A stretch of 64,000 bases of DNA from positions 67,698-131,697 of the forward strand of contig JAUCBJ010006701.1 of NCBI GenBank assembly GCA_032718475.1, given 5' to 3'. Shown here one piece after another: positions 8,705 to 61,769 of this stretch (position 1 is the first letter of the stretch; the number at the start of each line of letters is the position of its first letter). The position numbers and the translations under genes are program-made. The notes beneath the pieces are model-generated. The model was not told the origin of the DNA, ran no database searches, and worked only from the letters and a program-made list of their open reading frames with translations. Source of the DNA: Nemertoderma westbladi. Its lineage: Eukaryota; Animalia; Xenacoelomorpha.

Positions 8705-8774
8705 CCTCTTTTGCAGGTTTCGATGGCTAGTGGTTATCGAGTTTTTATCTGGGGCGGCAGCTGGTTTTAGTTAC

Positions 8775-9305
8775 TGTGACGGGATCCAGGAGGGATCCCG
8801 ATTTATCCGGTATTTTAGTTTACGCGTCCCCGCCGTGTATAAAGAGTAAACGAAAGCAGTGAATGAGTTCTGATGTTCGGTGTATAATAACTGATGGGTA
8901 TAAAATATAGATATAGATATGTGGAAGGCGGGATACGGTAACTAAAAGTCCCGTGCTCCCCTATCTAAACTAACTAACCTAAGCTAGCACTACTGCATTT
9001 GAGATAACTGAATTACTGATTAATAGGTTACTGATTATATTACACGGTTGGCCTAATTACTACCTAATCGATGCCTTGCCCCCCTCTGATTGGTTGATAC
9101 CCTTGTTGGCGCCCCGTGGAGTGTTCCCGTTCACTCCACCTGTTCTCTCTGGGTTAGGGGTTTGGCCCCTGACCCTTTATTGTGTGCTTCCTTCCCACTC
9201 TTATTGGGATGGCACGAGTTGGTTAACTATCCAATCTCGTGGCTCCCAATATTGCTTATCGGCTTATAACTTTATGGGGTGTTAGCGGGATTGAATAAGC
9301 TAACA
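8775..9305 (-). repeat. 5' LTR of A1 (~530 bp)
   Basis: TGTGACGGG...AAGCTAACA; homologous to 40368-40905 and 54144-54691. Confidence 0.95.
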
Positions 9306-9696: not shown

Positions 9697-10471
9697 TGAT
9701 AAACAACCGCGACCTCTATACTAACAGCAGAACTGTTGAACAGACCAATACCCGTTAATATCCTTCTGTCAACCTAATGAGCTCTCGCCTAACCAATAAG
9801 ACACAAATAATGCTCTACTGTTAAGTAAAGGGGATCAGGAGCGTGATATTACTAAATTGTAAAGGTGGCTAAATACAAAACCGCTACTTACCGTTGGATG
9901 GCGCTAATCTGCCGTCCGCTAATATATTTTACTAAATTTACACAACTCCTGCAAAATCGCTTGTTCCTTTCTCTACCGATCGCTCGATAGAGAGCTAACT
10001 GTTCGAATCTATGAGCCACGCGGGAATAACCAAAACAATAAACCCGAGTCGGCTCCCTAAGCTTACTTAAGACGAGTGCGAGAGGCCTTGCACTCAGAGT
10101 ATTCTTACGCCTAATTCTATCACTATTAAAACACGCTATTGTCTACGTCTTTCTAATCGCGAATACTGGAGGTTCCCTAACGTAATGTGTGAATGCGAGA
10201 ATATTTAAAATAATCAAAATGATACAGTAATTGTTTTTACGTGGATAGTACCACTCTGGGTCTAAACTTGCCTGCGGCTGGCTTTAGGCCAGCAAATTAC
10301 TAGCGTATTGTGTGTACCGAATAGTGCGATCTAGCTGATTGCCCGCTAGTGCAAATAACCGCTCAGCGTGAATAGTTTACAGTACTCTAATTATTACCTT
10401 AGCTACTCTCCGCTATGCTGCGTACTAATTCTTAATTTTTACTAATCAATTACAGTCACAAATATTTAACA
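9697..10471 (-). repeat. Partial 3' LTR of B (terminal 775 bp only)
   Basis: Matches 25306-26080 with about 3 substitutions by eye, and abuts the truncated exonuclease ORF directly. Confidence 0.9.
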
Positions 10472-23785: not shown

Positions 23786-24979
23786 AGTCTAAATAATGTT
23801 TGCCTTCCGGCAAAATATCTCGCAAAGGTTCGAGATATAATTATAATTTAACCGAAACACGGTCAAATTATTTGTCAAATAATCAGTTGGTCCAAAATGT
23901 CAAAATAAATTCGCAATGCAATATTGTGAATTTAATGGGGTATATAGTTATAGCAAATACTAGCACAATATTTAAACAAAAATATTATTATATAGCTACT
24001 ATATAGTATTAAATACCGGTATAGCACAAAATAACTTTGAATCTAATACAAAATATTCAAAATATACTTGCCGCCCGAATATTTCTAATTTTATATATAT
24101 AGCTCTAATTAACGTAATTTTAGTTTCAAATATTATATGTATCCACTAGCACGTGGCTACATCTTCGGGTTGCGACTCTCTCTAACTCTCTCTCTAACTT
24201 GAGCGATTCAAAAAACCATGGCCGGCTAAACCTAAATATCCTAACTAATAAATTGAGTTCAGCTTCGTGTTTAAACAACCGATAATTTTTTACTGCTTCC
24301 ACAAACACACCGGTGCCAACAGAACAACTAACCTTGTTTGCTGTGAGATTCCACGTCCGCGTCCAAAGATTCAGGCCCTTCGCTGATTGCAAACCGAACC
24401 CGCAGACCCACACGAACCCCAAACTCAGAAGTTCCGTCTTGCCATGTATCTCCAGATGGTATAAAATAACTAAGCGGTTACCTAACATACCGGTACAAAA
24501 CTCTAGAATTTTACAAAATAATTTTGACCGAATCTCGCAAACCTAGCTAAAATTTTCAAAAACTTACTAATTACAATTTGCCCTAAGGCCTAAGGAACTG
24601 CTGTATTCGCAATTAGTAAAAACGCACTACCGTACATCCACTGTATGCAGTACAGTAAGTAAAACAGTACACCAACCTAACAGCCTAATTGATACTGTGT
24701 GTGTGGTACGGCAAACAAATGTCCTTCTACCGTACGCAGTAACAGCAATCAGCCTAATGTACTACTGTACTATTGTACGCGACCAGTGAATACAGTAATC
24801 TAAACTAACAGCCTAAGAATACACTCAATGTTCTACTGTACGCTACAGCCTACAGCAAACAAAGCATACCTTACTGTTAAAGCAGTCAAGCAATCTAAAG
24901 TAACAGTAGTCTAAACTAATCAGCCTAAGAATACACTATTGACCGCTGCAAGCAACAGCCAATAAAACGCATACCTTAC

Positions 24980-25305
24980 TGATACGAAGTATCAGTAATC
25001 TAAAAATACAATAATCTAAGCTAACAGCCTAAGAATACTCTATCTGCCTTACTGTACGCAGTACAGCAAAGCAATATACGCGTACTACTGATACGAAGTA
25101 TCAGTAATCTAAAAATACAATAATCTAAGCTAACAGCCTAAGAATACTCTATCTGCCTTACTGTACGCAGTACAGCAAAGCAATATACGCGTACTACTGA
25201 TACGAAGTATCAGTAATCTAAAAATACAATAATCTAAGCTAACAGCCTAAGAATACTCTATCTGCCTTACTGTACGCAGTACGAAGTACAATATACGCGT
25301 ATTAC
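24980..25305 (-). repeat. Three tandem ~109-bp units in the B leader, each containing the PBS-position sequence and a 9-bp hairpin
   Basis: Units start TGATA at 24980, 25089 and 25198 (+ strand). Hairpin TACTGATAC-GAA-GTATCAGTA. Confidence 0.9.
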
Positions 25306-27514
25306 TGATAAACAACCGCGACCTCTATACTAACAGCAGAACTGTTGAACAGACCAATACCCGTTAATATCCTTCTGTCAACCTAATGAGCTCTCGCCTA
25401 ACCAATAAGACACAAAGAATGCTCTACTGTTAAGTAAAGGGGATCAGGAGCGTGATATTACTAAATTGTAAAGGTGGCTAAATACAAAACCGCTACTTAC
25501 CGTTGGATGGCGCTAATCTGCCGTCCGCTAATATATTTTACTAAATTTACACAACTCCTGCAAAATCGCTTGTTCCTTTCTCTACCGATCGCTCGATAGA
25601 GAGCTAACTGTTCGAATCTATGAGCCACGCGGGAATAACCAAAACAATAAACCCGAGTCGGCTCCCTAAGCTTACTTAAGACGAGTGCGAGAGGCCTTGC
25701 ACTCAGAGTATTCTTACGCCTAATTCTATCACTATTAAAACACGCTATTGTCTACGTCTTTCTAATCGCGAATACTGGAGGTTCCCTAACGTAATGTGTG
25801 AATGCGAGAATATTTAAAATAATCAAAATGATACAGTAATTGTTTTTACGTGGATAGTACCACTCTGGGTCTAAACTTGCCTGCGGCTGGCTTTAGGCCA
25901 GCAAATTACTAGCGTATCGTGCGTACCGAATAGTGCGATCTAGCTGATTGCCCGCTAGTGCAAATAACCGCTCAGCGTGAATAGTTTACAGTACTCTAAT
26001 TATTACCTTAGCTACTCTCCGCTATGCTGCGTACTAATTCTTAATTTTTACTAATCAATTACAGTCACAAATATTTAACAGCGTACTAATTACTAAGAGT
26101 TCCAGAATACGTAATTCTAATTTATTACGCAACAGGTTTCGCTAGTAATAGCCTAAATTGCCGTATTACTTTGACCTAATCAGTAACTAATTATTGTAAC
26201 TAAGAAATAGAAATCAATCAAAAGAAAAGGGCGCCTACCTAAACATTCATAATCATAGGCACACTTCAATAACACACCAATCAGCGTCAGAAATCACAGT
26301 TCGCAATTATGCAGTTAACTACTGTATAGCCCACAATTATGCGATTCACTACTCGTACTCTACACTCAACGTTGTAGTACGCGCAGGCCTCTCCCGGATA
26401 CATCTAGGATTCCTAACTAACCCAATTCCTGCCCCCCTAATACTAAATAGAGACAAAACCTGGATCATCAGCCCCCTAGATACTGTATCGGCGAATGGTC
26501 TGCGTGTTACAGTGCAAGTGCCCGCCCGCAACGGTGACCCCCGCCAGCGTTGCCCGCTTTGAATCCTCCGCTCTCTCCTAGTCGCTCAACCCCCCGATGT
26601 GCCCACCGCCCACTGGCACCTTAGCCCTCCATTATGCTAATAGCTACCGTAGCGGCGCATGCAAATCACAAAGTCTGACAGTCTCAGAAATCCCTTAGGA
26701 TTATTGCGCAGAAAGGAATCACATAGAACCATTAATCAAAAGTAGAAATCATAGTTCAGTTGTAATTAGCAGTAATCGAAGGAATTAATTGAGAAACACA
26801 ATCGAGAGTAATCGCACTAGCAAATCATTCCAAGAAATTAATCAAAATTAGCAAATTGCAGAAAATACGCTAAAATATCCGTCAAAATTGAATAGAGACA
26901 GCTCAACAAGTACAAAGGTGATAGCAGATCATGTGAGGTGTCATGTGAGGCTCTACCGGCACACCGCCAATTTATAGGTGATCCGGATGGGGTGATGCAA
27001 TAGGGTGACTCAATCGCTCTCCTATTGGCTCTCCAGTCCGCGCTAGCATTAGACCAACCTGGAAACAGTTAGTCCAATAAGGAGGCCGGATTGTAGCCCT
27101 ATTGCTTGCCCAAACCTCAAATTATTACCATATATGGTAATGGTTCACGTCTCTGGCTGCTGAATGGCCAGGACAGCGTCCCTATGCTAGCCCTATCGAT
27201 GCTAATATCAGCAAGCACAAAATCCAGGGTCCAAATAAACTCGCTACCCTGGAACTATCTACATATATCCTAATACAAAATTACGTAGGTAGGGCTACAT
27301 ACTATACAAAATGGATGGATTCAAATATATGGGTGTTTCGATTTCCCTATCTAAATACCACTGCGTTATTATGCCTTATCTAAAATGTTATGCTGCACAA
27401 CGGACTAATATTACATACAGTATAACGGACTAATATTGCATACTGCATAACGAACTAATATTGCATACTGCATAATGACTAATATATGTGGATACAGCGC
27501 CATATACCGTAACA
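25306..27514 (-). repeat. 5' LTR of B (~2.2 kb)
   Basis: Left end matches 9697; right end ...CCGTAACA is followed by the TSD. Minus-strand TATAAAT at 26970-26976 with CCAAT/ATTGG boxes upstream. Confidence 0.9.
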
Positions 27515-27947: not shown

Positions 27948-28279
27948 TATTAGAAGAGATACCGTATTCCTACTAATGCGAAGAGACGGTAACAATACCT
28001 GCAATATCCTACTGTAAAGTTTGTGAATCAAATCATAAATCCGACCTTCTCACCAAAACAGTAAACTCTAAGTAAGCGAATATATTGCAGTATCGATCTC
28101 TTATTACCGGTGAGGCAGAAAACAGTTTACGAGCAGACAAACTTCGATAAAACAAAATCCCGCGCAGCGAATCCTAAAATCAGGCTGACTCACTGACGGA
28201 CTAAGAGGCTCGTATACTTTGCCGCGGTGTGATTTATATGGTTGGGCAAAGGGACGCTAGCTAGGTACAGAGGCAGAGA
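27948..28279 (-). repeat. Partial 3' LTR of C (terminal ~332 bp)
   Basis: Matches 56951-57282 with about 1 substitution, then diverges abruptly. Confidence 0.9.
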
Positions 28280-33082: not shown

Positions 33083-36000
33083 TTATTTACTAATATTAGG
33101 TGGAGATTTGTAGTCTCCAGAATCGTTACGAGTCTCTTCAAGAAGTACGAGACGTTGAGTCGGTCTGTCTACTGTACGACCGTCAATTGTCCGTACCGTC
33201 ACAGTTCTTGTCACTCCATCCATAGATGGATGTGTGGCTAAAATTACACCTGTTATCCAGAAGCGTCTTTTTAGATTCACTTCCGCTAACAGCACGTGAT
33301 CTCCCGGCTTTAATGCGCGGGTGTTATTGTACCAGTTTGTTCTGGCAGAAATAGAGGGCAAATAATGGTTTTGCCATATTTCCCAGAATTTGTTAGCCAG
33401 TAGTTGCGTGATTTTCCACGCTTTTCTACCGTAGCTATCGCCTTCTATTGGAATAGAAATAGGCGTCAAAGTCGTCGGTGCCTGCATAAGCAGGTGTGCC
33501 GGTGTTAATGCAAACTGGGATTGTTTGTCATCGGGTACTAATACTATTGGTCTAGTATTTAGTATTGCCTCGATTTCAACAAACAATGTTGTCAGTTGGT
33601 CGTCTGTCAATATGTGGTTTACTGGAATGACCTTTGCCATGGCTGTCTTTATAGATCTAATCAATCTCTCCCAGACTCCGCCTCTCCATGGACTATCTGG
33701 AGGATTAAACTTCCAAACAATCTTGTAAGGACGTAGTTCGTTTGAGATTTGATCATGATCTAATTTCTTAAAGGCTCTAGCAATCTCATTTCGAGCACCA
33801 ACAAAGTTTGTCCCTTGGTCTGAGTACAAGCATTTCACTAGTCCGCGTCTAGCGATAAATCGCCGCAATGCTAGTATAAACGCGTTGGTAGAAAGATCCA
33901 TCACTCGTTCAATATGAACTGCCCTACTGGACATACATGTGAAAATCAGTCCCCAGCGTTTTACTAGTATACGTCCACGTTTCGTATGTATGGGACCAAA
34001 GCAATCAATTCCAGTCTCTGTAAAAGGTGGTCTGAATGCTTGAAGTCGTGCTTGTGGAAGTTCACTCATTTCTTGGGTACCTATTCTAGAATGTACCTTT
34101 TTACAAATAATACACGTACGTGTCACTGAACTTAATGCTTTACTGGGTCTAATTAATACAAATCTTGTACGTAAGTAGGAAAGACAGTGGTGTCTTCCAG
34201 CGTGTTTCAGATGTAAATGTGCGTCCAGTATCATTGCACGTTGTAGTTCGTGATGTTGCGGTATTATTATTGGGTATCTAAAGTTTGTGTTAAAGTCAAT
34301 GTTTTGAAGCCGAGATTTATGACAAATTAAGCCATTATAAATAATCGGACTCCAACTCAGTATTGGTGACGACTTGATTGGTTGACCTTGATTTATAGAT
34401 GTGAATTCGCGCGCGAAATATCGCAGTTGGTAATGGCGAATTAATTTAATTTCACACCTGTCAATCTCAGCCAATGTAAGTCGACGTGTAAAGTCGCGTT
34501 TGCCTTTAACGTATTGTACAAAACGTACAATCCACGCTAATTTTCGGCAAGCGTTTGTCCAAGAGTCTGTTAAGTTTACAATACGGTCGACGTGAGTATT
34601 TGTGACGTCATCAGGTAAGTCAATGGAGATTTTGGAAGGTTTTGATTTACTAGAAGGGCCCACGGGTCCGCCGGTAAGTATTCCCTTGTTGACTGTTGAT
34701 CCGTCCGGGTCTACAAGTAATTTGTCCTTCTTCGTCTTCCTACCTTGGTTGTCAGTACTTTGTAAGTCGATCGTTAATGGTGGTTTGAACTCTATGGGGT
34801 CACTGGGTTTCGGTAAACTTAATTTTCTGCCGATATTAATCCCAGGTTTCACCATAGGTTGCAAGTTCGGTATGTCTCTTGAGCGCAAAGTAACACCTGT
34901 ATTTACATTAGCGTAGGTACTACCCACATCTGTAATACATGAGGTTTCACCGTGCTTGTGGTTGCTCAAGTGTGTCAAATTTGGTAGTTTGTCAATACAA
35001 GGCCGCTCCAATAGGGAAACTGCGGCTTTACTGTTTGTCAATATGTTACTAGTGTCTGGTAGAACATTTTGTGACATGTCTGGTAAAATGTTTCGCGGAA
35101 CATCCGGCGAAATATCTAGTGACGTGTCTGGCAAAACGTCTGGTTGACCGTCTAGTAACGTGTCTGGCGATACGTCTGGTAACGTATCTGGTTGTTTGTC
35201 AATAGAAGGCCGCTCCAATAGAGAAACTGCGGCTTTACTGTTTGTCAATGCGTTACTAATGTCTGGTAGAACGTCTGGTTGACCGTCTAGTAACGTGTCT
35301 GGTTGACTGTCTAGTAACGTGTCTGGTTGACCGTCTGGCGATATGTCTGGTGTAGAAAGGCTCGCAAGTCTTCCGTTCTTGACCTTTGAAGTTATATCTT
35401 TCCATTTCGCCTTCGGTTTCTTCTTGAGTTTAGCCGCCGTCTTTTTCTTTGCTTTCCCTTTCTTTGGTTTTTTGATTTCCGCGTCTTTAGGGATAGTGTT
35501 AGACTTGTTGTCATATAGTGGTGGCCAATCTTGTGTCGATTTCTGCAAGAATTGGGGTCCATGTTGCCAAAATTCTTTGTTCTCCGGTTTACAGAATTCC
35601 TCAGGCATCATTCCTCGCGACGCAATATCGGCTGGGTTTTGTGGTCCGGGACAATGTCGCCAATCTTCCTTTATTGAACGGTCTAGAATTTCCGCGCGAC
35701 GGTTAGCTACGAATGTCTTGAATTCAAGTGTGTCGTTGTTTATGTAAAATAAAACCAACGTCGCGTCAGTCCAATAAAATATCTGTAAACTTGACTGTAG
35801 TTCTGTCTGTATAAGGTTCACGATGGTGGTTGACAGGGTTGCAGCTTGTAGCTCAGCTCGTGGTGTCGTCATATACTTAGTAGGCATTGTTTTTGCCTTA
35901 GAAGTAATGAGCGAAACATCGAATTCTTCTGAGTCTACTTGTCTGCGCAAGTACGCAGCCACACCAAAACCGTTGTCACTGGCGTCAGAAAAACAGTGTA

Positions 36001-39000
36001 ATTCCAAGTTGTCAGGAAATGTTGTTTGTAATGGAAAGTAGACTCTGGGTATGGAATAATCCTCTAGCGAAGATAATTCCGCCTCCCAGGTCTTCCATAA
36101 GTCCACTTGGTCTGATGAGATCGGCTCGTCCCATGTCAGTCCATCCTTCCAAATACTGCGCATATAAATGCGGGCTTGCAGTATTATTGGACTGATGAAT
36201 CCTAATGGATCGAACAATCGGCTCAATTTTGACAAGCATGATCTCTTTGTCAGTGTGTTTTCTTGACTGTCCAGTCTCACCTTCACTCGAAAGTTGTCCG
36301 TGTTTGGGTCCCAAAAGAGCCCCAACACCTTGGTCGTCGGTAGTGGTTCGAACTCTAGGTCTATGTCACCACCTCCACGCTCAGTCGTTCCGAATGAGTC
36401 TACTAATTCGGCACTGTTTGAGGCGAATTTGGTGAGGTTAAAACCTCCGCCCGCTAAGCAGTCCCGTAATTGATGTGCTACTGTTGTAGCACGTTCTACT
36501 GTGTCGCAACTCTGTAAACCGTCGTCGACGTAAAAGTCACGCTCCACAATCCTAATTATCTCTGGGTCATATAAATGTTTCTGATCCCTAGCGGCTTGTT
36601 TTAGGGCGTACATCGTACAGTTTGGGCTGTCTCTGGCACCGAAAACGCGAACTTGCATTTGGTAAGTCGCCGGTGGTAGACTTAAGTCTCCTTCCGGATA
36701 CCAGAGGAACCTCAAACTGTCTCTGTCTTGCTCTAACGCTCTCACTTGGTGAAACATAGCTTCAACGTCACAAGTAAAAGCTACTTGACGCTGACGGAAG
36801 CGCATAATCACCCCCATAAGATAATTATTCATGTTTGGTCCATCCATCAACTCGCTATTGAGGGACATTCCCTCAAACAGAGCCGCACAGTCATTGACTA
36901 CACGTACTTTGTCTGGTTTGTCGGGGTGTCTCACATAGTGATGTGGCAGGTAGTATGTCTGGTTAGTCACTATCTCTGGGTTAGTCATTCGGATAGCGTA
37001 TCCCTTAGTCAAATACGTCTCCATCTGAGTGTTGTACTGCAGATGGGCTTTCTCGTCCTTTAATAGACGTTGTCGTATTGAGTGTAGACGTCTTAAAGCT
37101 AGTGGGTAGTTATTTATAAGTTTAGGACTTTGGCTACGCCATAACATCCCCACCTCATAATGTCCGTCTTTCGTCTGGCGGATAGTATCTTCCATGATCC
37201 TCAAAGATTGTTTCTCCTGTTCCGACATACATGGTTCGTAGCTACCAGGTTCAGCTGTATCTTGTTCTAACCACCTGATAGTCTTCTCCGTTAATTCTTT
37301 GTCCAATGCAGCTTGTTCCACTTGATGATTTCTCAACGCGTCATCATCGATATCGACGGGCATTGTTGAGGTTGTTGGGGTAGGTAGACTCGCAAGCCTT
37401 CCGGCGTTATCATCTGTCGTCGATGGAATCTCTAGCTGACTCGTCTTCTCCCCAAGTTCTAAACTCACCTGGTGAATTAGCTGCTCCTTGTGACTTATCA
37501 TACTAGTTACACGTCTGTCATGTTTTGTATGTAAGGTAGTATGGTCCACGTCGTGTGAAAAGGAATGAATTGAATTTGTAGTTAATAAACTACATGTACT
37601 TTGTACATCGTCTTCCTCGTCACTTATGTCCAGTGTGCGCACAGGCGCTCGAGTATACCACCCTATCGGCGTTCTACAGGCGTATGCGTTTCCCGCTACG
37701 ACTGCCGATGGTCTGGTTTCCCACACTTGATGTAGGTTGAATTGGTCTGTCCCGATCAGCATGGCTACCGATCTATAATTGACAGGACATTCAGGTACAC
37801 CAAGGTGTCTGAAATACTTACGGTCCTCCAAGGATTGTTCTGGGACAGGACCTAGTAGGTTACTAAAGTCTTTTGTGGCCGCAAAAGTCAAATCCTTGAA
37901 GGGTAACAAAGACCTCTCCTTTTCGCTGTGTTGCGATTTTGGAAGAAGAGTGTCTAAGTTTAACTTAACTCGTGTCACTGGTATTGCACGTTGTCCGTGC
38001 ATACTACTCACGGTGTAACTGACGCGCTTACCTTGTCTGAGATCCGTCACTACATCAGCTATCTGCTCATCCACGTAGCTGTGAGATGAGGCTGAATCCA
38101 GGATAGCGTAGATTCTCTTGCTCCCCTTTGTGCCAGTAATCTTAATCGGAATTACACTGAATCCCTTTAGTTGGTCAGTCGTCAGAAGCGCGATCGATGG
38201 TTGTTCGTCTCCATCAGAATATACGTCGTCGTCTTCTGACTCTTCGTCCGACGATCCGGATTGTTCTGAGAAGCAATCCTTTATATGTGTCACAAAGGTT
38301 GGAGTCGTTTTCGATTCTCGATTTTTGTAGGCCGCATCACATCTCGCTGCTGCTTCCGGGTGTTCCCTGGCGAAGCGTTTTGTCGGCGTGTGGCTGTCTG
38401 TGTGGAGCAGACCGTCGTGGTTGCGTCCACAGGATGGACAAGTGTCGGTATTTGGGCAATCTTTACGGACGTGTCCGTGTCGCGTACACCGCCAACAAGA
38501 GTCCAATGGCCGTATCTGCAGCCGTCGTTCTTCCGAGTTTAACTCGCGAAACTGTCGACAACCTCTCAACTTGTGACCGATATACCGCTTGCCCAAATGC
38601 TCGCAGTATTGGCAGCCGCTGAAGTCGGTACCGAGTTGCTGTCTAGTCTGTTTTGTCCCAATGGGCGCAGATACCCTACTACCGTCCGAGAATTGTCGGG
38701 TTTCCGTCGGTGTGGCGTAAGTGGCCGTCTTGGTGGATGTTGTCTGGGGTTTTTGTCGGTTTGAGGATGGCAAGGTGATTCCTTCTGCCACGATGTGCTG
38801 GTCAGTGTAGTTGGATCGAGTTTCTACCACTGCTTCCCTGGATATCAAAAGGTACACATCCTCCAGTTTTAAGAATCCACCCCGCTCTTCCCGCTGGTAT
38901 TCAATCTTCCTCCACTCCCGACGAAGTCGATGGTGGAGTCGTCCTATGATCTTTAATAGGACTGTAGGGGTATTCCCGTAGTCAAGTTGTCCAATGGATC

Positions 39001-40367
39001 TCAAAGTAGTGATAGCGTTCTTTATCTCGTCAGCCAGTTTCAATAAGTCTACGGGTTTAGTAATAGCCCCTCCCTTACAGAGTTCCTCTATCACTGACCT
39101 GGCCATGCTGACTGTACCTCCGTAGATCGAAGTTAAACGATCGTACGCTAGTTCGAAAGCGTCCGGTACACCAACGAAGGTCTCCGCCAAATGTTTAGGT
39201 TCTCCTGACAACGTTTGAAGCAGGTAATTAAACTTCTCCCGTGATGTAAAGGCGCACACGGCGATCTGAGATTCGATATAGTCTACGAAAGTGTGCCAGT
39301 GTTTTGAACTACCGGAAAACTTCGGTGGTTGTTGTACCGGCAATCCCTGTCTGGCTGCGAATTTCGCTATCTCCTCGGCAACGTTCAGAGTTTCGCGTCC
39401 TTGGTTGGTAATCTGGTTGATATCCCTTCTTGGCGCTTTTCCCTGATACGATGTGTGTTTTGAAGGTACCGGTCTTTGTGGTTCCTTCGGGTGTCTATTG
39501 TGTTCGAATTCAGTGTTCCTCGAACTATCGGTTTGAACTTCCTCCAGACGTTCCTCAATCTGAGCCAACTTGTTAACAACTGGTCGCAGGATGTCGGCGA
39601 ACTGTTGTGTACTGATTGCGTCCGTTGGTTGTAACGCCTTCTGTGTTGGTGTATTCTGTGGAGGATTGTCTACAAAGGAGTTGTCTGAACGCTCGCGTTT
39701 ATATTCATCGGCCGCCCCTGTTCTAAATACCTCGCGTTTCGGGTAATCCGATTCGCTCGAAGTACTACTATCATCTGGATATGGTGGTCGACGTGTTCGC
39801 GTCCGTTGCGTCGTCCGAATTCTAACGTTTCGTTTCGGAACATCGTCCACTGATCTCCGTTGTTCGGTAGGCTCACAAGTCTTCCTCGAAGTCGTAGATT
39901 GCGATGTAAATTGGTTGAACGGTCGCGTATCCACTGGTCTCCGTTGTTCGGTAGGCTCACAAGTCTTCCTCGAAGTCGTAGATTGCGATGTAAACTGAAC
40001 CGGTGGGCGAATGACAGCATTTGAATCAACTGGCCTTGTAGGTCGAAACGTCATTGGGTAAGCGTAGTGTGTAACGGGTTTAGGTGTCGACGGTGGACTC
40101 ACCTGTTTAGTCGTCAGTAGTGCAGGTCCGGTCAATAAACTACTACGATCTGTAATCGGTGGGTTACTTACCTTGACTTTCAAAATAGGCGACGACGTTG
40201 CTCTTGGCGGTGTAAACTTGTCCGGAATAACAAACCTGTGTTCCGTCACACCATGGATAGGAGAAATATCACTACTACCCGCAATCGAAACAGGTTTCTT
40301 AGTCATAATTGGTGCAAACATAGGAGTTACTTGTGGGAATCGTTGACACAAGTCTTTTACTAATTGT
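33083..40367 (-). CDS. gag-pol: C gag-pol, major C-terminal part (gag core, protease, RT, RNase H, integrase)
   Basis: CWRCTRHGHVRKDC, ILDSAS, FYVDD, LHCFSDAS, HLHLKH..CIIC, GIDCFGP/SDQGTNF/WERL. The first ~42 aa of the ORF-track call are A2 LTR sequence. Confidence 0.93.
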
Positions 40368-40905
40368 TGTGACGGGCTCCAGGAGGGATCCCGATTTATC
40401 CGATGTGGTAATTTAGTCCACGCGTCCCCGCCGTGTATAAGGGTGAAATAAAGTGACTGAGTTCTGAAGTTCGGTGTATAATAATAATAGGGCATAGGAT
40501 ATAGATATAGATAATGTGTACAAGGCGGGATACGGTAACTAAAGTCCCGTGATCCCCTAACTAAACTAATTGGCTGTACCCTACGCTAGCACTGCTGCAC
40601 TGAGATAACTGCATCACTGATTAATAGGTTATTGGTTATATTGCACGGTGGCCTTACTGCTACTCAATCGATGCCGTTCCCCCCTCTGATTGGTTAATAC
40701 CCTTGTTGGCGCCCCGTGGAGTATTCCCGTTCACTCCACCTGTTCTCTCTGGGTTAGGGGTTTGGCCCCTGACCCTCTGTTGTGTGCTTCCTTCCCACTC
40801 TTATTGGGAAGGCACGAGTTGGTTAATTGCCCAATCTCGTGGCTCCCAATATTGCTTATCGGCTAATAACTTTATGGGGTGTTGGCGGGATTGAATAAGC
40901 TAACA
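40368..40905 (-). repeat. 3' LTR of A2
   Basis: TGTGACGGG...GCTAACA, homologous to 54144-54691. Confidence 0.95.
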
Positions 40906-45632: not shown

Positions 45633-48600
45633 TTAAGGTGCCCCTTCTAGAAGACAGCATTTACCTACCGCTCTCCTGTAGGTTTTTCTGTCCTTCGCAC
45701 CTATCTTTCCACCTATCCGCACTTCTACCGATCGGACTCTTCCGTCCTCGTCGGAGTAGGTGCCTACAACTCTCGCCAACCGCCACTGGTTGTTGATGAT
45801 AGTATCATCCGTGACGATTACGAGATCTCCCTCTCTTAACTCCCTGTTCGGCTTCCTCCACTTGCTCCGCTTATGGAGTGTGGGTAGGTATTCCTCTACC
45901 CACCTCCTCCAGTATTCTGCGCTAATTGCTTTAGCTACTTTCCAACTTTGGCGGGAGTGTATATCATCTGGGTCTACACCCCGCATATCGATGGTCGCTG
46001 GCCTTTCCATCAGGAAATGGCTAGGTGTTAGCACGTCTAATGACTCAGGGTCATCATTCTCTGGATATAGCGGTCTGCTATTAATGATCCCCTCGCACTT
46101 CGCAAGTACTGTCCGTAAGACGTCTTCAGTGACCATGTGGGTGTTCATCAGCTTCGTCATTAGACGTTTTGAACTGCCCACCAGTCTCTCGACGCATCCT
46201 AGTGTATGTGGTGCATACGGCGTCCTTCTCTCCCACTTCACTTGTCGTCTTCTCATGGCCGCCCTGACTTCTTCTCCCTCCAAGATGTCTAAGGCCTCTG
46301 CCATCTCACTCTCTGCGCCCACAAAGTTGGTGCCGTTGTCGCTATATATCACTGCGATCGTCCCACCTTTGCGGTCCCTAAACCTTTCTAAGGCGTTAAT
46401 GAATGCTGATGCGGTTGCATCTTGGGCGAGTTCTATCCCTACCGCCCGCGTATTGTTGCATACGAAGATAATACCGTAGCGTTTCTCCGTGTGTCGCATC
46501 ACCTTGATCTTTATCGGCCCGAACATGTCCACACCGCAATGCGTAAATGGCGGGTCGTGCTGTCTTACCCTACTCGCCGGTAGTGGCGCCATCTCCTGTA
46601 CGGCTCGCTCCTTCTTCGCTCGTCGGCAGGTCTGGCACTGCCCCACTACCGCTTTCACCTTCTTCCTTAGTTGTTTGACCCAATAGGTCCTCCTTATCTC
46701 TGTGAGGGTTCGGTTGGTGCCCCCATGCAGTATCGATTTGTGGGAGTCCCATATGATCTGGTGGACTATAGGCGATCCTGTGGGAATGATGATGGGTTTC
46801 GGTGGCACGACTATACTGTTGTTATATCCCACCCTAGAATTCATTACTAGAATCCCATCCTCGTTGAGTTGTGGCGACAGCGTGATCAACTCGCTATCCC
46901 GTCGGAGGTGCTGTTGGTTACCGACGCGTTCCACCTCGTCGCCGTAGTTCTTGCGTTGTTCATAGCGGATCACTGCCTTGGCCGCTCCTTCCAGATCTAT
47001 GGTTATCCTGGTCTTCTTGTCCTTGCCGACTCCCGCAAGGAAATTCCCAAAGGCTCTCCAGTACGCCACTAGTTTCTTGGTCTTATACCAACTGGAACTG
47101 TAGCTGAGGAGTTTATCCGTCGGGTTGTCGCACAGTTCCCTTCCTGGTTGCACGTCCCTAATCTCCCTCACCATCTGGGAGTATATCTCTTCTCCCTCTG
47201 AATCTCCCTCTTCTCCTTCTGATACTGGTTCCGAGCCCGGGTCCACCTTCCTCATCGGCGGCCAGGCCTCTCTATCGCTCAGAAATTGTGGCCCATGTTG
47301 CCACAATACTTCCTTCTTCAGGAAAGTGTGGCGTTCCACGCCCCTCGACAGCAAGTCCGCTGGGTTCTCATCTGTTGGGCAGTAGTGCCACCTTTCCAGT
47401 TCTGTGCTCGCCCTTATTTCGTCCACTCTATTCGCGACGAATATCGGGTATCTCGTCTTTTCGTTGTGTAGCCAACCAAGCACTACCATGGAGTCCGTCC
47501 AGTAGTGTGTCTCCACTATGTTGGGAATTGTATCCACTAGGTAGGCTGTGGCTCTAACTCCTAGTCTCGCAGCTGTCAATTCTAACTTGGGAACAGATGC
47601 TGAATCTGGCGGCGTTGACTTAGCTTTGCTAAAGGCTAGTCTGGGCTTGTGAGGCCCCTCTCGTTGTACTAAATAGAGTGCCGCTCCGTATGCCTCTAAC
47701 GACGCGTCGGAGAACATATGTAGGTCCAGATTCGTCATGTTCCCGTCCGGGAAATACACTCGCGGCATGTTGTATGTTCCCATCCTCTCCAAGTCTCCTG
47801 TCCATTTGCTCCACTGTTTCTTGATGTCTTCTGGTACCTCTACGTCCCACTCATCCTTCAACTTATATACTCTCTTGAGTATCTGTTTCCCCGTGACTAG
47901 TAATGGGGATGCTAGGCCTAAGGGATCGTATATCCTTGCTATATACGATACGTAACCCCTCTTCGTATGGGTGTCTGCGCCCTCCTGGCTCAGCTGATAC
48001 TTCAGTTCGTCTGTTTTTCTATCCCACACGATTCCCAACGCCTTCTGCTGGGATTCCGTTCTCTTAATCGCCATGTCCTGTCCTTTGGCTGTTGTAGGGT
48101 TGTCCATGGTCGATTCTGGTTTCTTGTCTTCTATTTCCCTGATAAATTCTTCTGAACTGGATTGGAATTTGGTCAGGTTGAAGCCGGATCCTTTCAGGAT
48201 GTCGCGAACCTCGCGCCCTGTTTCCAGTATCTCCTCAACCGTATTTCCAGACTCCATGCCGTCGTCTACGTAGAAACCGCGTCTGATCATATCGACGGCC
48301 CTACTGCTGTATCTATCTTCCTTCCCCTTTACCGTGTCTCTCACTGCCATAGTCGTCGTAAATGAGGACGACTTGGCCCCCATATTTTGTACTACCATCT
48401 TATATGCCGGTATTATAGGCGGTTCTTCTTCGCCGTTATACCATAAGAAGCGTTGACTGTCGCTATCTTCCTCTGTTACTCGGACTTGGTTGAACATGCC
48501 TTCTATGTCACACGTGAAGGCGTGTTTCCCATTCCTAAATCTAAGTAGTACTTCTATGCCCGAATTGTATATGTTTGGGCCCTCTAGTAGGTAATCGTTT

Positions 48601-51600
48601 AAGCACTTTCCGTCGGTCTTTGCCGATGCATCGACTACCATCCTAAGTTTACCTTTCTTTGGGTCTAAAGCTACGTGGAGTGGCAGGTAGTATGTCCTGT
48701 CCGTGTTCGGTTCGTCGACCGGTAACTCCACGGCCCATCCTTTCTCGACGTACTTCTTAATGGTTTTGTGAATGTACTCGTTCTTCTCGGGGCTCCGTTG
48801 TAGTGTTTGTTTCAGCTTGCGGAGTCTCGTGAGTACCATCCCTCTATTATCGGGTAGCGGTATCTTCGGTAGTTTCCATACCATTCCTATTGTATACCGC
48901 CCCTCATCACACGTCATCGATTCCTCCACACTTTGTAGAGCCTGCTTGTCTTCTACCGAGGTCCCGACCCCGGTCTCTTTCAGTCCCTCGAAGTCCTGTC
49001 TGAGCAGTCTTTTAAGCTGCTCCTCTGCTCCCTCGTCACCCATTTCCTGCATTGTTCCCGCGAACATGCATCCTGATGTCTCCGACATCCTGAATGGTAT
49101 CTTGCTCTTAATTGGACCACTCAGCGTCCACCCGAATGGCGTTAATATGGCCACCGGGTCGCTCTGCTTGTCTTCGCCGAAGACCGTCTGCATTCTCTCG
49201 TGGGCCGTTGGGCAGTCCATGCCTACTATGATGGATACCTTCCTAACGTCCACGTCTGGGATTGAGAAGTCAATGTTGTCCAGGAATTTGTATTGCTCGA
49301 CCTCGATGTTGGTTGGCCGCCTGGCATTGATGTTAATTGACTCTATTACTTGGATGGGGTCGATGGTTGCCCCATAATCGCATCCTGGTGCCACTGCTGC
49401 AATTGCGCACCGTCCTGTCCTCATCTCTAGGATCTCGTCTTTGCTAGAGATGGTTGTCACCGCCATCCTGCTTGGCCTCGTTCTCAACCCTATTTCTTCG
49501 GCTACCCATTCCTCAACTAATGTGAAGGCAGCTCCACTATCAACCAGCATTAGTGTTGTTACTGATCGATTGCCTTCCCCGATCACTCGTACTGGTACTA
49601 CTCCAAGTAGCACTGTTCCTCTCTTCTTCGCCCCTACTGTGCTCGTTGCCATCGTCTGGCCTCTCCTTTGGCCAAACTTGACCGGTTTCTCTTGGCATTC
49701 CCTGGCCTTGTGTCCACTCTTCACACATCGCGAGCAGATTTTATTGCTCGACGCGTAATCTATCTGGTCTTGCCTCGGTAGCGCCTGCCAGTACCTGCAG
49801 TTCATGGTTTTATGAAGCGCATTTGCGTGTAACTGGCATTTGCTCTTTGGGTCATAGCCCTCTTTATACAATGCATTGCGTATCGCAGTTATATTCGTAC
49901 CAAAGTCCCTACTATTCTTATTGACTGGGTTTGACCTACTGGACGTACTGGGGTTATGTTTATTCATGTTGTTATTGTTCCCCTGTCCGTCCCTTGATGT
50001 TGTCTTATCTTCGTTTGTCTGTGGACTTGCAGTCCCCTGCGTCGCTGCGTATGGCAATGATTGTCTGAGCCTCGGCAATGCGTTTGATGTATTGTGCTCT
50101 GGTTTGGGCCTGTAATGATCTGTCTTTGGTCCCTTTCCCAGGCTATCTTCACTATAGACTGGGTCCGTTATTAGTTCAGCCTCGTAATTTAAGAAGTTTG
50201 ACATTTCTTCTAAACCTGGTTCCGCACCCTTCTTGTCTCGGGTGGAGAAAGCGATCTTCCTCCATTTGTTGCGCAGCCAGCTCGGTAGTGCCTGCGCTAT
50301 CGTGGTGATGTTATTGGACGCGTTGAGTTCGTATGGCGCGTCTAGCGTCTTCAGCACGATCAGCGCCTTCTCGACTTTGTTAGCAAACGTCTTAATGCTA
50401 ACGGGATTATCCTGTAGGCCACCCGATGTTATGCCTCTCAGCGTTTGCCTGATGATCTTGGCCGGGTGCCCGTATTCCCTATCCAGTGCCCGCCATGCTG
50501 TCGTGAAGCCGCCCTCTATTCCCTGGTATTGCCTCACGATGTCGTATGCTGGGCCTCCCGTGTACACTTGTAGATACTTTAGGCACTCCGCCTGCGTCAA
50601 GTTTTTTGTTAGTATTTCGTTACTATACATTCGCCGAAACTGCAAGTATTCTTCCGGCCTGCTCCCATCGAATTTGAACGGTTCCACGGGTGGTAATTCG
50701 ATCCTCGTTTTCAACGCATCGATCAACGTGGCCATCCCCATTGCCTGCGCTTCTAATGGATTCGACGGATGCTGTATAGTTTCCCCTGTCTGGTGCGGTT
50801 CGTCCGTCCTATTTCTTGATCTTCTCTGACTCGGATATGTCATCGGGGGTAGCGGCCCCCTCCATATGTCTGTATCACACGACCTGTTTTCGTCCAAGGG
50901 TTTCACTGTTCTTGCTACCATCGGGGTATATTGTTGATATTGTGATGGGGGAATGTCACCCTGTCCCCCCCCCCACCGGTATGTCTGGTACTGGGGTTGA
51001 TGTTAATACGTTGGGGCCCATGCACCTATCCGCAATAATTCCCCCCTCCCCTGGGTATATGTTATGTCCCTGCATGCTGTAGTCATACTGCTGTGCTGGT
51101 ACCGGTATAGGCCTATCAGCTTCTGGCCTACTCGCCGGTATGTATTCCGCGACTTCCGGGTTTAATCCCGTTGTCCGCGCTATCCTATCGCCTACATTGC
51201 CTCTCTCAGTATGGCCTACGGTATGTGCAGTAAGACCTACAGTATGCCCTACAGTCTGCATGTGTTGCTCGGGATCGAAGTTTATTCTTCTCGAATAATC
51301 CTCCCCGCGGCTACCGTATTCTCGATCGGTAGGTACATTCCGTCGGAAAGTTTCTCTTCGACCCCCCTCTCTACTGTTCTCTTCTTCGTACCGGTACATC
51401 GCGTACCCCTCTCTCGGCGTGTAATGCGTCTCACCGGATCGCATCCCTCCGGGGCGACGGCAATCTCCCGGAGTCCGACCCCACTGACTCTCCGTTCTCA
51501 TCTCGATTACCGACGGCTCGCTGTCCGTCCTCGCTCTTCTATCGTTTGCGGCGATACTTCTACTACTCTCTTCCTCTCTTCTCCTATCAGTGGAATATTC

Positions 51601-54064: not shown

Positions 54065-54143
54065 CTCGTCTGCTCGGTGGAGTTCGACTAGCTAGCGTGG
54101 GGTTCTTTGAGTTTAACTAGGGCGGCAGCTCGGATTTAGTTAC

Positions 54144-54691
54144 TGTGACGGGATCCAAGAGGGATCCCGATTTATCCGGTTGTGGTAATTTAGTCCACGC
54201 GTCCCCGCCGTGTATAAGGGTGAAATAAAGTGACTGAGTTCTGAAGTTCGGTGTATAATAGGATAGTTCATAGGATATAGATATTGTGAATGTGTACAAG
54301 GCGGGATACGGTAACTAAAGTCCCGTGATCCCCTATCTAAACTAATTGGCTATTATCCTACGCTAGCACTGCTGCACTGAGATGACTGAATCACTGGTAA
54401 TAGTTACTGCCAAGTGGCTATACTGCACGGTTGGCCTTACTTACTACCTCAATCGATGCCGTTGCCCCCCTCTGATTGGTTGTTACCCTTGTTGGCGCCC
54501 CGTGGAGTATTCCCGTTCACTCCACCTGTTCTCTCTGGGTTAGGGGTTTGGCCCCTGACCCTCCGTTGTGTGCTTCCTTCCCATTCTTATTGGGATGGCG
54601 CGAGTTGGTTAATTGCCCAATCTCGCGGCTCCCAATATTGCTTATCGGCTAATAACTTTATGGGGTGTTGGCGGGATTGAATAAGCTAACA
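54144..54691 (-). repeat. 5' LTR of A2
   Basis: Homology to the other A LTRs; adjacent TSD. Confidence 0.95.
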
Positions 54692-56141: not shown

Positions 56142-58429
56142 TTCGGTAGTTGTAAGTCAAGTAAAGTGAGTGTCAAAGTATCAAACTTACCGTATTTTAT
56201 CTAAACGGTACTAATTACAGTCATATAAAATTAGCCTACCGGCCGATTTTATAGCAGATGGATAAAATTAGCCTAAACGGCCAATTTTACAGCAAATAAA
56301 TGTCACGGAATAAGTATATAATAAAATTAGCCTAGCGGCCAATTTTATAATAAATAAATCGGATAACGATATGCGTTATCAAAAGGTAAATTAAATACAA
56401 TAATTACGGACTAATTCAGCAATGAACAAAGAAATCATACGGAATGCATAAATACTTGAGACAGTGGAACCCACAATAATTTTAACTAATACGGTAATGC
56501 CTAACTTATTTATGCAACTTTTCGAACTCACCCACTCCAATAATTCTCCAGAAAAACAGATTCCCACATACAAACCGGACGTGAACCTTTCCGTTTTCAG
56601 CGTTGCGGACGAAACGCGATTTTCCCAACCAAAGTTGTTGAGTTATCTATCTCCCAAACTTGCTAATCACGGTCTTGCTCCCGTTACAGTCTAGAAATGA
56701 GTTCTGAATCCTGAAAAACAAAAGAGTTAGGTTTTGCTTTTACGAAAATTTTGTACCGGTACAATATGGTATTTAAACCCTTTTAAACACCGGTATTCAA
56801 TTCCAAAAATATTTTACACGCGGTTCAAATCAAATTTTATTTCAAAAAATTAGCACTTAGCTAATCAAATATAAACTTTTACCTCAAAATACAAAATTTT
56901 CAAATAACTTTAGTCCTACCGAACCGTAGTTCAGTAAAACATATTCCTACTATTAGAAGAGATACCGTATTCCTACTAATGCGAAGAGACGGTAACAATA
57001 CCTGCAATATCCTACTGTAAAGTTTGTGAATCAAATCATAAATCCGACCTTCTCACCAAAACAGTAAACTCTAAGTAAGCGAATATATTGCAGTATCGAT
57101 TTCTTATTACCGGTGAGGCAGAAAACAGTTTACGAGCAGACAAACTTCGATAAAACAAAATCCCGCGCAGCGAATCCTAAAATCAGGCTGACTCACTGAC
57201 GGACTAAGAGGCTCGTATACTTTGCCGCGGTGTGATTTATATGGTTGGGCAAAGGGACGCTAGCTAGGTACAGAGGCAGAGATTTGGAGATGTCTAACTA
57301 GCGGGCAAAACACAGTAAGGACGAAAGTTAATTTTATATATTTTGAGGTGTAAATAATTTCTAACGCGCGTGTGTTAATTCTGAACGGTCAAAAGCAGTT
57401 TTGCTCCTTCACATATATAATTACTGGGTACGGTGTGCATTTTACGAATATTCTAATTTTGTAACTTGTAGGTCCAATACTCACGAATGATAAGGTTCCT
57501 TCCCCTCTTGCGTATTTCCAGGACTCAAATTCAGGCATAAGGTTAATGCTACGCCCAGAATTCGGCAATTTTTAATTTACCAGGCCCCTAATACTAAGAA
57601 GAAATGTGTTAGTTTACTACAGTAGGCGTACGGTTACTAATAGCTATCCTGGCTCTTGTCTAGAATTTTAGTCACCTAGGTAGGCTGGGTAACTTCCTAT
57701 TAGGACGTTGGCGGGGACACGGTAGATGTTAGTATATCCCTAATAGCCTCAATTTATTTGCGCCTAGTTGTAAACTGCCCTACCGCCTGAACGGTACAAT
57801 CCCAATTCAGGTGAAACACAACGACCCTCCTAGCCTACAAGTTCTAATGCAATGGACACCGTTGTACTGCAAATAGTCACAGACGCACCTGCACTTAGCA
57901 AGAGTTAGGCGTACAGTTTGCTGCACCCTACCAATGTGTATGCCTTGTACCGGTGTGCCTACGTCCTATCTGCGTACTAGTATCTGCCTGCTCTCCTCCC
58001 CCCGTAGGAATATGAAGGTCTACTGTGGTTTTTTCCTGAATCAAGACAGTACAGTCCCTAAGATGTAATTTTAGGCTCACAGCTTGTCACTACTTCTACC
58101 TTTGATCTTTGGTCTTACGCTTAGGTAGCAAGGCGTCGAACGCTGTCTAACCTTTCAGGCGATGGGCGAATAACTAAGGTGGTATTGCGGGTTGTCTCCT
58201 GTCTACATTCCTTTGATGTTCCCGTTCATTGCTGCGGCCCGATCTCTAGCCGGCCATCCTGTTCCTAAGAGTGTTCACCGTAGTGAATCATGGTGAAAAG
58301 AAAAGCAGATAGCGGTATTTCTGAATTTATTGCAGATAATAATACAAAATGTAATCTGAAAACTAATGACAGAATAAACAAGATTGAGTAACTAATAAGA
58401 TTAGATAGATTGCACTGAGATTGAGAGAT

Positions 58430-58464
58430 TGAGATAACTAATGAACGAAATCGCACCTTTTATA
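58430..58464 (-). promoter_or_regulatory. Putative Pol II core promoter of C (TATAAAA + Inr-like TTAGTT)
   Basis: Minus strand TATAAAA (58464-58458) ~25 nt upstream of TTAGTTATCTCA. The A1 LTR has the same AGTTATCTCA (TCAGTTATCTCA, ~9000-9011). Confidence 0.55.
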
Positions 58465-58670
58465 CCAAATTTGTGCCGCAATCAATCGAGAAATTCTCGA
58501 TTGTTCTATAGGTTCTAACAGGTTTTTAAAGATAACTATTGGTCCAGCGAATATATAACTTGCACGACATTGGTTACAATCTAATAACTACAGTCTCATT
58601 GGTTAATCTAGGTACAGACAAATGCAATTTAATTTGTAGCGGTTAATTTAAATGAGTTGAAATTCTGCAC

Positions 58671-58757
58671 AAAAAATAATTCGCACTTACTAGGATTCGA
58701 ACTCAATACCTACTACACATATAATTTCCAACGCTCTACCGACTGAGCTACTGAACC
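58671..58757 (-). ncRNA. Degenerate tRNA-like Pol III unit inside the C LTR
   Basis: A-box/D-arm TAGCTCAGTCGGTAGAGC, B-box GAGTTCGAATCC, then a T6 run. The acceptor stem does not pair. Confidence 0.6.
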
Positions 58758-58890
58758 ACTTGACTAATAGGCGTACAATAGATATAACAAATACAAATGA
58801 GGACTCAAAGCAATCTTTTACAAAGTTAATTCGAATAAAATAAAAATTTTGAAAATCCACGGCATTTAGAGAATATAATTCTATAGTAAT

Positions 58891-61676: not shown

Positions 61677-61769
61677 TTTATCTGATAATATATTTAGATA
61701 AACAAAAGTTAAATGATTAATTACAACGCTTGTTGGTTTATTTTATAATAATTAACAAGCCATTTATAT

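What the first reader, a model, noticed from the sequence alone, without database searches (positions are those of the whole stretch)
56940..58014. No tRNA PBS: the sequence after each 5' LTR is complementary to the family's own LTR (candidate self-priming)
Seen (element sense): every 5' LTR is followed by GTA..., not TGG. In C, GTAGGAATATG (56950-56940) is the perfect 11-nt complement of LTR 58004-58014. In A1, GTAACTAAAA (8774-8765) pairs with 8938-8947 (10/10). In A2, GTAACTAAA (54143-54135) pairs with 54311-54319, and the A/T run length changes together in A1 and A2. In B, GTAATACGCG (25305-25296) pairs with 26374-26383 at 9/10, and its tandem copies at 10/10. Pairing always begins exactly at the LTR edge. 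An exact 11-mer in 1.9 kb is expected about 5e-4 times by chance at uniform composition. Known: S. pombe Tf1 self-primes with the first 11 nt of its RNA, whereas BEL elements are described as tRNA-primed. Here the complement lies roughly 70 (A), 435 (C) and 570 (B) nt after the predicted TSS, so the mechanism would differ from Tf1.
Basis: partly seen in the sequence, partly recalled or inferred. Interest (0 to 1): 0.9.

Follow-up and report, generated by a model that had tools for sequence, protein, structure and literature searches.

The report
Self-primer signature in BEL/Pao retrotransposons
Three families of BEL/Pao jumping genes nested in this animal DNA have no tRNA landing site; that spot instead pairs with 9-11 letters inside each element's own terminal repeat, as it does in distant relatives (often only across an intron), so these elements likely start copying themselves with a cut piece of their own RNA.

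Summary
Observation confirmed. The window is a nest of BEL/Pao LTR retrotransposons (families A, B, C). After each 5' LTR, whose edges are fixed by target-site duplications or LTR alignment, comes GTA, not TGG. The site pairs with the element's own LTR from the first base: C 11/11, A1 10/10, A2 9/9, B 9/10. In shuffled LTRs this occurred 0, 5 and 6 times in 2000 for C, A1 and A2; B alone is weak (168/2000). Of 8 distant BEL/Pao relatives with a readable junction, none starts with TGG. Six have an 11-12-nt self-match, five of them only across a canonical LTR intron, and two sister elements change both partners together. The matched LTR stretch ends in AC or ACT in all 12 elements. Best reading: tRNA-independent self-priming from an internal RNA site cut after AC, unlike Tf1's 5'-terminal primer. 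No RNA ends, host tRNAs or activity could be tested, and folding from the predicted start buries the site in 3 of 4 elements. Ten literature searches found no report for BEL/Pao; earlier notes of this scan saw the same signature in other genomes.

The parts
56951..58885 (-). Element C 5' LTR (1935 nt, ends TA...TA)
   Evidence: TSD ATTAC; last 332 nt shared with the 3' LTR remnant; empty-site contig in run X5
56940..56950 (-). C site at the PBS position, 11 nt
58004..58014 (-). C LTR complement (candidate self-primer; inferred cut 3' of 58004)
   Evidence: 11/11 pairing, 0/2000 shuffles
56967..56976 (-). Extra, 9-nt-matching copy of the PBS-like site inside the C LTR end (28-nt duplication absent from C')
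58458..58464 (-). C TATA-like box below three CCAAT boxes (predicted promoter)
   Evidence: motif scan
57753..57758 (-). C AATAAA about 245 nt downstream of the candidate primer end
   Evidence: also present in C'
57823..57841 (-). C alternative local partner that buries the candidate primer in a predicted long hairpin
   Evidence: fold
27948..28279 (-). C 3' LTR remnant (331/332 identical to the 5' LTR end)
1..1398 (+). C'-type LTR, inverted, cut by the window start; candidate primer at 366-376 differs from C at one base
54144..54691 (-). Element A2 5' LTR (inserted in C gag)
   Evidence: TSD ACAAT
54135..54143 (-). A2 site at the PBS position, 9 nt
54311..54319 (-). A2 LTR complement
   Evidence: 9/9, 6/2000 shuffles
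40368..40905 (-). A2 3' LTR preceded by a purine tract
45633..51002 (-). A2 gag-pol frame (DUF1759, protease, RT YVDD, RNase H/Peptidase_A17, integrase, DUF5641)
8775..9305 (-). Element A1 5' LTR
   Evidence: alignment to A2 LTRs
8765..8774 (-). A1 site at the PBS position, 10 nt
8938..8947 (-). A1 LTR complement
   Evidence: 10/10, 5/2000 shuffles
25306..27514 (-). Element B 5' LTR (2209 nt)
   Evidence: TSD TACTG
25296..25305 (-). B site at the PBS position, 9/10 match
26374..26383 (-). B LTR complement
24977..25303 (-). B leader tandem repeat (about 109 nt x3) with 10/10 copies of the site at 25197 and 25088
26121..26126 (-). B AATAAA about 247 nt downstream of the candidate primer end; the only canonical one in the B LTR
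9697..10471 (-). B 3' LTR remnant (772/775 identical)
33083..40585 (-). C gag-pol frame downstream of the A2 insertion
13484..16891 (-). B pol frame downstream of a LINE insertion

Best explanation
Each of these BEL/Pao elements carries, where the tRNA site should be, 9-11 bases complementary to a site inside its own LTR, and it likely primes minus-strand DNA synthesis with that piece of its own RNA after a predicted cut just 3' of the site. SHOWN: the pairing, its start at the LTR edge, the absence of TGG, the shared AC end, the same signature in distant relatives, and recognisable RT and RNase H motifs. INFERRED: (1) transcription starts 70-570 nt upstream of the site, so the primer is the 3' end of a longer capped fragment, not the first 11 nt as in Tf1; (2) nucleocapsid chaperoning moves the site out of a local hairpin and onto the PBS; (3) the element's RNase H cuts after AC, by analogy with Tf1; (4) strong-stop DNA runs from the PBS back to the cut and jumps to the 3' end through the stretch between the cut and the poly(A) site. 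Step 4 would explain why AATAAA lies downstream of the primer end in B, C and six relatives, and how relatives keep an LTR intron: sequence upstream of the cut would be copied from the 3' LTR. A, B and C would be the intron-free form. I take the 5' LTR copy of the same RNA as the likeliest primer source (about 60% within this reading); the 3' LTR copy or a short LTR transcript acting in trans are not excluded.
For: Window: pairing and nulls. Among 960 leader positions, a match this long to the LTR occurs only at offset 0 in A1 and A2, and at 5 positions in C. At offset 0 each site matches its own family's LTR best (other families at most 8 nt). A-run and T-run lengths agree in A1 and in A2. 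The C LTR ends before the second, 11/11 copy of a duplicated site, while C' ends where the first copy begins. Relatives: of 8 readable junctions from 6 assemblies, L010, L011, L016, L018 (11 nt) and L026 (12 nt) match only across a GT(A/G)AG...YAG intron in the LTR, and L012 matches contiguously (11 nt); nulls 0-1/300 each. L010 and L011 differ at two of the last three exon-1 bases before the same donor (CAC vs TAA), and their PBS differs to match (GTG vs TTA). The matched stretch ends in AC in 10 of 12 elements and ACT in 2. AATAAA follows the primer end by 0-23 nt in L010, L011, L014, L016, L018 and L026, and by about 246 nt in B and C. RNase H motifs are present in A2, B and C.
Against: No RNA-level data. 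When folded from the predicted TSS, the helix forms only in A2 (p 0.97); A1 0.03, B 0, C 0. From the site itself: C about 1.0, B about 0.87, A2 0.48, A1 0.04. B's edge sits at the 9/10 copy although 10/10 copies with the same preceding bases lie 108 and 217 nt downstream, and B is not significant alone (168/2000; 210/300). A2's 9 nt and B's 9/10 miss the >=10-bp self-primer criterion of PMC6317226. C has another AATAAA 327 nt upstream of the site, also seen in C'; A has no canonical AATAAA downstream. Among relatives L014 is not significant (34/300), L013 has only 8 nt (6/300, LTR cut by the contig end), L016 has TGG at offset 1, and the LTR ends of L018 and L026 are uncertain. With offsets 0-10 free, cross-element matches reach 10 nt in 3 of 132 comparisons. 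Host tRNAs could not be checked (no genome).
Confidence: 0.68

Rival explanations
1. Tf1-identical self-priming: the real transcription start is at the complementary site, so the primer is simply the first 9-11 nt of the RNA and the upstream TATA boxes are misread.
For: The helix forms readily when the RNA starts at the site (C about 1.0, B about 0.87). In C the bases after the site pair with the LTR end (p 0.72), like one arm of the Tf1 'pretzel'.
Against: CCAAT plus TATA motifs lie 460 (C) and 602 (B) nt upstream, and TATAA/INR 101/73 nt upstream in A1; no TATA-like match lies about 30 nt before any site. In five relatives the match spans an intron, which needs an upstream exon.
Confidence: 0.1
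2. The pairing is a structural switch (packaging, dimerisation, translation or poly(A) control) between a local hairpin and an LTR-leader helix, and priming uses something else.
For: Each site has a predicted alternative local partner (A1 near 8823-8812, B 26359-26355, C 57841-57823), and the long-range helix loses in 3 of 4 folds from the predicted TSS.
Against: It leaves no primer site (no TGG in 30 nt). It does not explain the register at or near the LTR edge, the shared AC end, or the LTR edge following a duplicated site in C.
Confidence: 0.12
3. A host RNA (tRNA half or other small RNA ending in UAC) is the primer, and the LTR complement is incidental.
For: ICTV describes the family as primed by host tRNA-Arg or tRNA-Gly (PMC8742986). 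Anticodon-loop priming is known in Copia elements (PMC10886601). The host tRNA set was not available.
Against: It needs a different host RNA for each of about 11 different site sequences, each also matching its own LTR, and cannot account for the L010/L011 covariation across a splice junction. No tRNA or Rfam match lies in the window.
Confidence: 0.07
4. Chance, or GTA is only a splice donor.
For: B alone is compatible with chance; only three families are in the window.
Against: C, A1 and A2 nulls are 0-6/2000; six relatives are at 0-1/300; donor consensus match is 4-6/9, reached by 18-77% of GT sites.
Confidence: 0.03

Closest known systems
Tf1/Tf2/Tj1 and the Tf1/sushi group (Ty3/gypsy chromoviruses)
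   Same: PBS next to the 5' LTR complementary to about 11 nt of the element's own LTR; no tRNA site; RNase H cleavage makes the 3'-OH in Tf1 (PMC7175516; PMC4600332).
   Different: Different superfamily. The Tf1 primer is the first 11 nt of the RNA, in a three-duplex 'pretzel' (bioRxiv 2022.12.06.519325); here the site is predicted to be 70-570 nt inside the transcript, up to 1068 nt from the LTR end, and in relatives is often built across an intron.
Plant TAR (Ty1/copia) and Tcn1 lineages, predicted self-primers
   Same: Predicted from the same kind of evidence: >=10 bp LTR complement starting 0-5 nt after the LTR (PMC6317226). A1 and C meet it.
   Different: Other superfamilies, in plants; no intron-built primer in the passages read.
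BEL/Pao LTR retrotransposons (Belpaoviridae)
   Same: Domain content and order, LTRs, 5-bp TSDs.
   Different: ICTV lists an 18-nt PBS for host tRNA-Arg or tRNA-Gly, LTRs of 0.2-1.2 kb and genomes of 4.2-10 kb. Here there is no tRNA PBS, B and C LTRs are 1.9-2.2 kb, A2 is 14.3 kb, and there are extra 3' ORFs.

Membership tests
BEL/Pao LTR retrotransposons | Pao-type pol and gag domains (Peptidase_A17, DUF1759, DUF5641) in PR-RT-RH-IN order | tested here: met
   Pfam E 1e-28 to 1e-42 for Peptidase_A17 in all four elements; motif order
BEL/Pao LTR retrotransposons | LTRs with target-site duplication | tested here: met
   5-bp TSDs for A2, B and C; C ends TA...TA instead of TG...CA
BEL/Pao LTR retrotransposons | 18-nt PBS complementary to the 3' end of host tRNA-Arg or tRNA-Gly (ICTV profile) | tested here: not met
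   No TGG within 30 nt of any of the 4 LTR ends. Filed as BEL/Pao by protein only, as a variant in priming.
BEL/Pao LTR retrotransposons | Assignment to a named clade (Sinbad, Suzu, Flow, Tas, etc.) | tested here: inconclusive
   Quick tree without labelled references: B and C group (99), A2 is a long branch; best homologues 35-39% identical
Tf1-type self-priming | PBS complementary to >=10 nt of own 5' LTR, starting 0-5 nt after the LTR | tested here: met
   C 11, A1 10; A2 (9) and B (9/10) fall just short
Tf1-type self-priming | Primer is the extreme 5' end of the transcript | tested here: inconclusive
   Promoter motifs place the start 70-570 nt upstream; no RNA ends were available
Tf1-type self-priming | Three-duplex 'pretzel' around the PBS | tested here: inconclusive
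   One flanking duplex predicted in C; in A a stem directly after the site and a hairpin at the LTR end; not the full set
Tf1-type self-priming | Cleavage by the element's RNase H | not testable with these tools
   Catalytic motifs present in A2, B and C
Tf1/sushi group | Ty3/gypsy chromovirus pol | tested here: not met
   Pao domains, no chromodomain hit

The most novel reading that the evidence does not exclude
A broad part of the BEL/Pao superfamily has dropped tRNA priming for a self-primer cut from inside its transcript after an invariant AC. The primer is built by splicing an LTR intron in some families and is ready-made after intron loss in others (A, B, C here). The cut redefines R as the stretch from the cut to the poly(A) site, which makes host splicing a licence for reverse transcription.
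Probability: 0.5. Interest if true: 0.9.

Novelty: new variant of a known kind. Interest (0 to 1): 0.78.

Why it matters
How BEL/Pao elements replicate is called 'poorly understood' and is assumed to be tRNA-primed (PMC8742986), although they are the second most abundant LTR class in animals (PMC3118150). Self-priming here would be a third superfamily using it, with a geometry Tf1 lacks: an internal primer, in relatives joined by splicing. It predicts an exact nucleotide for the RNA-DNA junction in each family, so it can be tested directly. It would also free these elements from silencing by 3' tRNA fragments (inference), and tools that need a tRNA PBS would misannotate them.

Tried and rejected
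No whole genome is held, so there was no family survey and no host tRNA comparison. No tRNA or Rfam match in the window. No RNA holder listed. Contigs of 4 runs laid on 56800-59000 supported the C boundary; none of the 40 variant rows shown (133 not shown) fell in the two sites, so they say nothing on covariation. Copy-level variation at the A sites was not obtained. A splice-built primer in the window elements was tested and rejected: the best junction at offset 0 gives 8, 6, 7 and 9 nt against 10, 9, 9/10 and 11 unspliced. Compensatory change between C and C' was inconclusive: 18 of 23 changes in paired sites kept the pair against 13.1 expected, but 13 of 21 against 12.2 in the reverse direction, with no two-sided change. 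B and C LTRs share no alignable sequence. A ribozyme was considered; there is no Rfam hit. Viral-contig scans and the first genome-contig scan found nothing; the 6 metagenome loci were too short for LTRs. Of 28 loci fetched, 8 short ones were not examined, 20 were searched for LTR pairs, 10 had none, L017 (tandem repeat) and L020 (contig-end overlap) were dropped, and 8 were scored. The careful tree did not finish; the quick tree is cited. A recalled report that C. elegans Cer7 encodes its own tRNA-like primer was not confirmed by search and is not used.

Full report
Anatomy. The window holds nested LTR retrotransposons on the minus strand, with Pao-type Pfam domains (Peptidase_A17 in all four elements, with DUF1759 and, where pol is complete, DUF5641). 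RT, RNase H and integrase motifs are recognisable in A2, B and C. A2 (54691-40368; both LTRs, purine tract, TSD ACAAT) sits inside the gag of C (58885-27948, TSD ATTAC). B spans 27514-9697 (TSD TACTG) and carries a LINE insertion. A1 starts at 9305 and is cut at 1398 by an inverted C-type LTR, C'. A contig of run X5 joins the sequence left of 27948 to 58886, which supports C's ends. The best protein relatives are only 35-39% identical; the named ones come from cnidarians, echinoderms, molluscs, barnacles and fish. No host genome is held.

The observation. After every 5' LTR comes GTA, and no TGG lies within 30 nt. The following bases pair with the element's own LTR: C 11/11, A1 10/10, A2 9/9, B 9/10. 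In A1, A2 and C the match starts at the first base after the LTR and does not extend into it. Shuffled LTRs reach the same match at offset 0 in 0 (C), 5 (A1), 6 (A2) and 168 (B) of 2000 trials, and at any offset 0-5 in 11, 5, 25 and 798. With shuffled leaders and offsets 0-10 the counts are 1, 0, 2 and 210 of 300. So C and A are real, and B rests on its position and its 10/10 tandem copies. The A/T run has 4 bases on both sides in A1 and 3 in A2. C's LTR end holds a 28-nt duplication with an earlier, 9-nt-matching copy of the site; C' ends where that copy begins and C ends before the 11/11 copy, so in both the edge abuts the site. Against this, B's edge lies at its imperfect copy. As splice donors the sites are unremarkable: 6, 6, 4 and 5 of 9 consensus positions, reached by 601, 2624 and 1503 of 3392 GT sites for scores 6, 4 and 5.

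Independent test in relatives. Earlier notes of this scan (unchecked) reported the same signature in at least 3 other genomes, some built by splicing. I tested that on other data. A scan of prokaryote assemblies returned 22 BEL/Pao loci, evidently animal DNA carried in the bins (that origin is my inference). Of 28 loci held, 20 were searched for LTR pairs and 8 gave a readable 5' junction, from 6 assemblies; L010, L011 and L018 share one. None starts with TGG; L016 has TGG at offset 1. Five match their own LTR over 11-12 nt only across an intron with GT(A/G)AG donor and pyrimidine-rich YAG acceptor: L010, L011, L016, L018, L026 (nulls 0, 0, 0, 1, 1 of 300). L012 matches contiguously over 11 nt (1/300). 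L013 has 8 nt right after an acceptor in an LTR cut by the contig end (6/300). L014 is not significant by the test (34/300), though by eye 10 of 11 bases pair across a GTGAGT...CAG intron. L010 and L011 use the same donor; their last exon-1 bases differ (CAC, TAA) and their PBS differs to match (GTG, TTA). Offsets run 0-8, and the LTR ends of L018 and L026 are uncertain. In the cross-element table own-LTR matches are best or tied in most rows (not B or L013), and 3 of 132 foreign comparisons reach 10 nt. The matched LTR stretch ends in AC in 10 of 12 elements and ACT in L010 and L011. The window's elements gain nothing from splicing: they are the contiguous form. A quick tree puts the scored relatives in several branches, groups B with C (99) and leaves A2 unplaced.

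Where the site lies in the RNA. TATA boxes with CCAAT boxes lie 460 (C) and 602 (B) nt upstream of the site's 3' end; A1 has TATAA at -101 and an initiator-like motif at -73. AATAAA lies about 246 nt downstream in both B and C, whose LTRs share no alignable sequence, and 0-23 nt downstream in six relatives. A has no canonical signal downstream, and C has another 327 nt upstream. Folded from the site, the PBS helix has probability about 1.0 (C), 0.87 (B), 0.48 (A2) and 0.04 (A1); folded from the predicted start, only A2 forms it (0.97), because local hairpins take the site. A C/C' test for compensatory change was inconclusive.

Mechanism. Shown: sequence complementarity, register, covariation in A1/A2 and L010/L011, the AC end, and downstream poly(A) motifs in most elements. 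Inferred: the site is chaperoned onto the PBS, cut after AC (by RNase H, as in Tf1) and extended by RT through U5 to the cut; transfer to the 3' end uses the stretch from the cut to the poly(A) site. In ordinary reverse transcription an intron spliced from the 5' R would vanish from both new LTRs. Its retention in relatives whose PBS fits only the spliced form is easier to explain if sequence upstream of the cut comes from the other LTR copy or another RNA. Splicing of that copy as well would give intron-free families such as A, B, C and L012. I put internal self-priming at 0.68, Tf1-identical priming at 0.10, a structural switch at 0.12, a host RNA primer at 0.07 and chance or splice donor at 0.03. 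Which RNA copy supplies the primer is open.

Known systems. ICTV describes BEL/Pao as primed by host tRNA-Arg or tRNA-Gly and its replication as poorly understood (PMC8742986, whole text). Self-priming is shown for Tf1, where the first 11 bases pair with the PBS and RNase H cuts after base 11 (PMC7175516, passages). It needs a three-duplex structure (bioRxiv 2022.12.06.519325, passages), is proposed for Tj1 (PMC4600332, passages), and is predicted for plant Tcn1 and TAR lineages (PMC6317226, passages). Term searches in the main texts of BEL/Pao surveys (PMC3118150, PMC554778, PMC6238403, PMC8220671) found no analysis of their primer sites. Passages of PMC3286476, PMC3601003, PMC13524379, PMC5341516, PMC10886601 and PMC5443660 gave no BEL self-priming. 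Ten searches listed no paper reporting it. Subscription papers, GyDB and Repbase notes and all supplements were not seen and may bear on novelty.

Verdict. The feature is real. It works like Tf1 self-priming but is not a Tf1/sushi member, and it fails the tRNA-PBS feature of BEL/Pao. New variant of a known kind; interest 0.78. It is held below 0.9 because there are no RNA data, B is weak, and other windows of this scan already show the signature.

Noticed in passing
window 58885, 56951, 27948 and 1398: Family C LTRs begin and end with TA rather than TG...CA, in C (both ends) and at the C' 3' end.
   Followed up: partly
window 9697-10471 and 27948-28279: Both B and C 3' LTRs lack their 5' parts. 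B joins an ORF directly at a short repeated motif; C is preceded by unrelated AT-rich and gag-like DNA (28911-28280) with a 37-nt, 81% likeness to the C LTR end.
   Followed up: partly
window 54144-54691 vs 40368-40905: A2's LTRs are only 507/536 identical although A2 sits inside C, whose LTR remnants are 331/332 identical; around the TATA region the A2 3' LTR resembles A1 more. Suggests recombination or conversion rather than age.
   Followed up: partly
window 41610-44162, 29042-32534, 10466-12757: Extra ORFs between pol and the 3' LTR in A2, C and B, with no Pfam hit; CCHC knuckles in A2 and C; the B and C proteins are visibly related.
   Followed up: no
window 16784-18703 (+): LINE-type RT ORF (RVT_1, DUF6451) inserted in B pol in the opposite orientation.
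   Followed up: no
window 25259, 25150, 25041 approx.: Each unit of B's leader repeat also has a 12-nt perfect complement in the B LTR, 46 nt into the unit.
   Followed up: no
window 61600-64000; 44700-45500; 6569-6789: 19-bp satellite at the window end; 32/36-bp tandem array after A2 pol; 60-bp repeat in A1 gag.
   Followed up: no
L007-L028: Prokaryote genome bins carry BEL/Pao contigs, several with both LTRs and TSDs: likely host DNA contamination, and a usable source of eukaryotic elements.
   Followed up: yes
window 58718-58755 (-): A tRNA-like A-box/B-box look (visible by eye) near the start of the C LTR; ARAGORN and Rfam call nothing.
   Followed up: no
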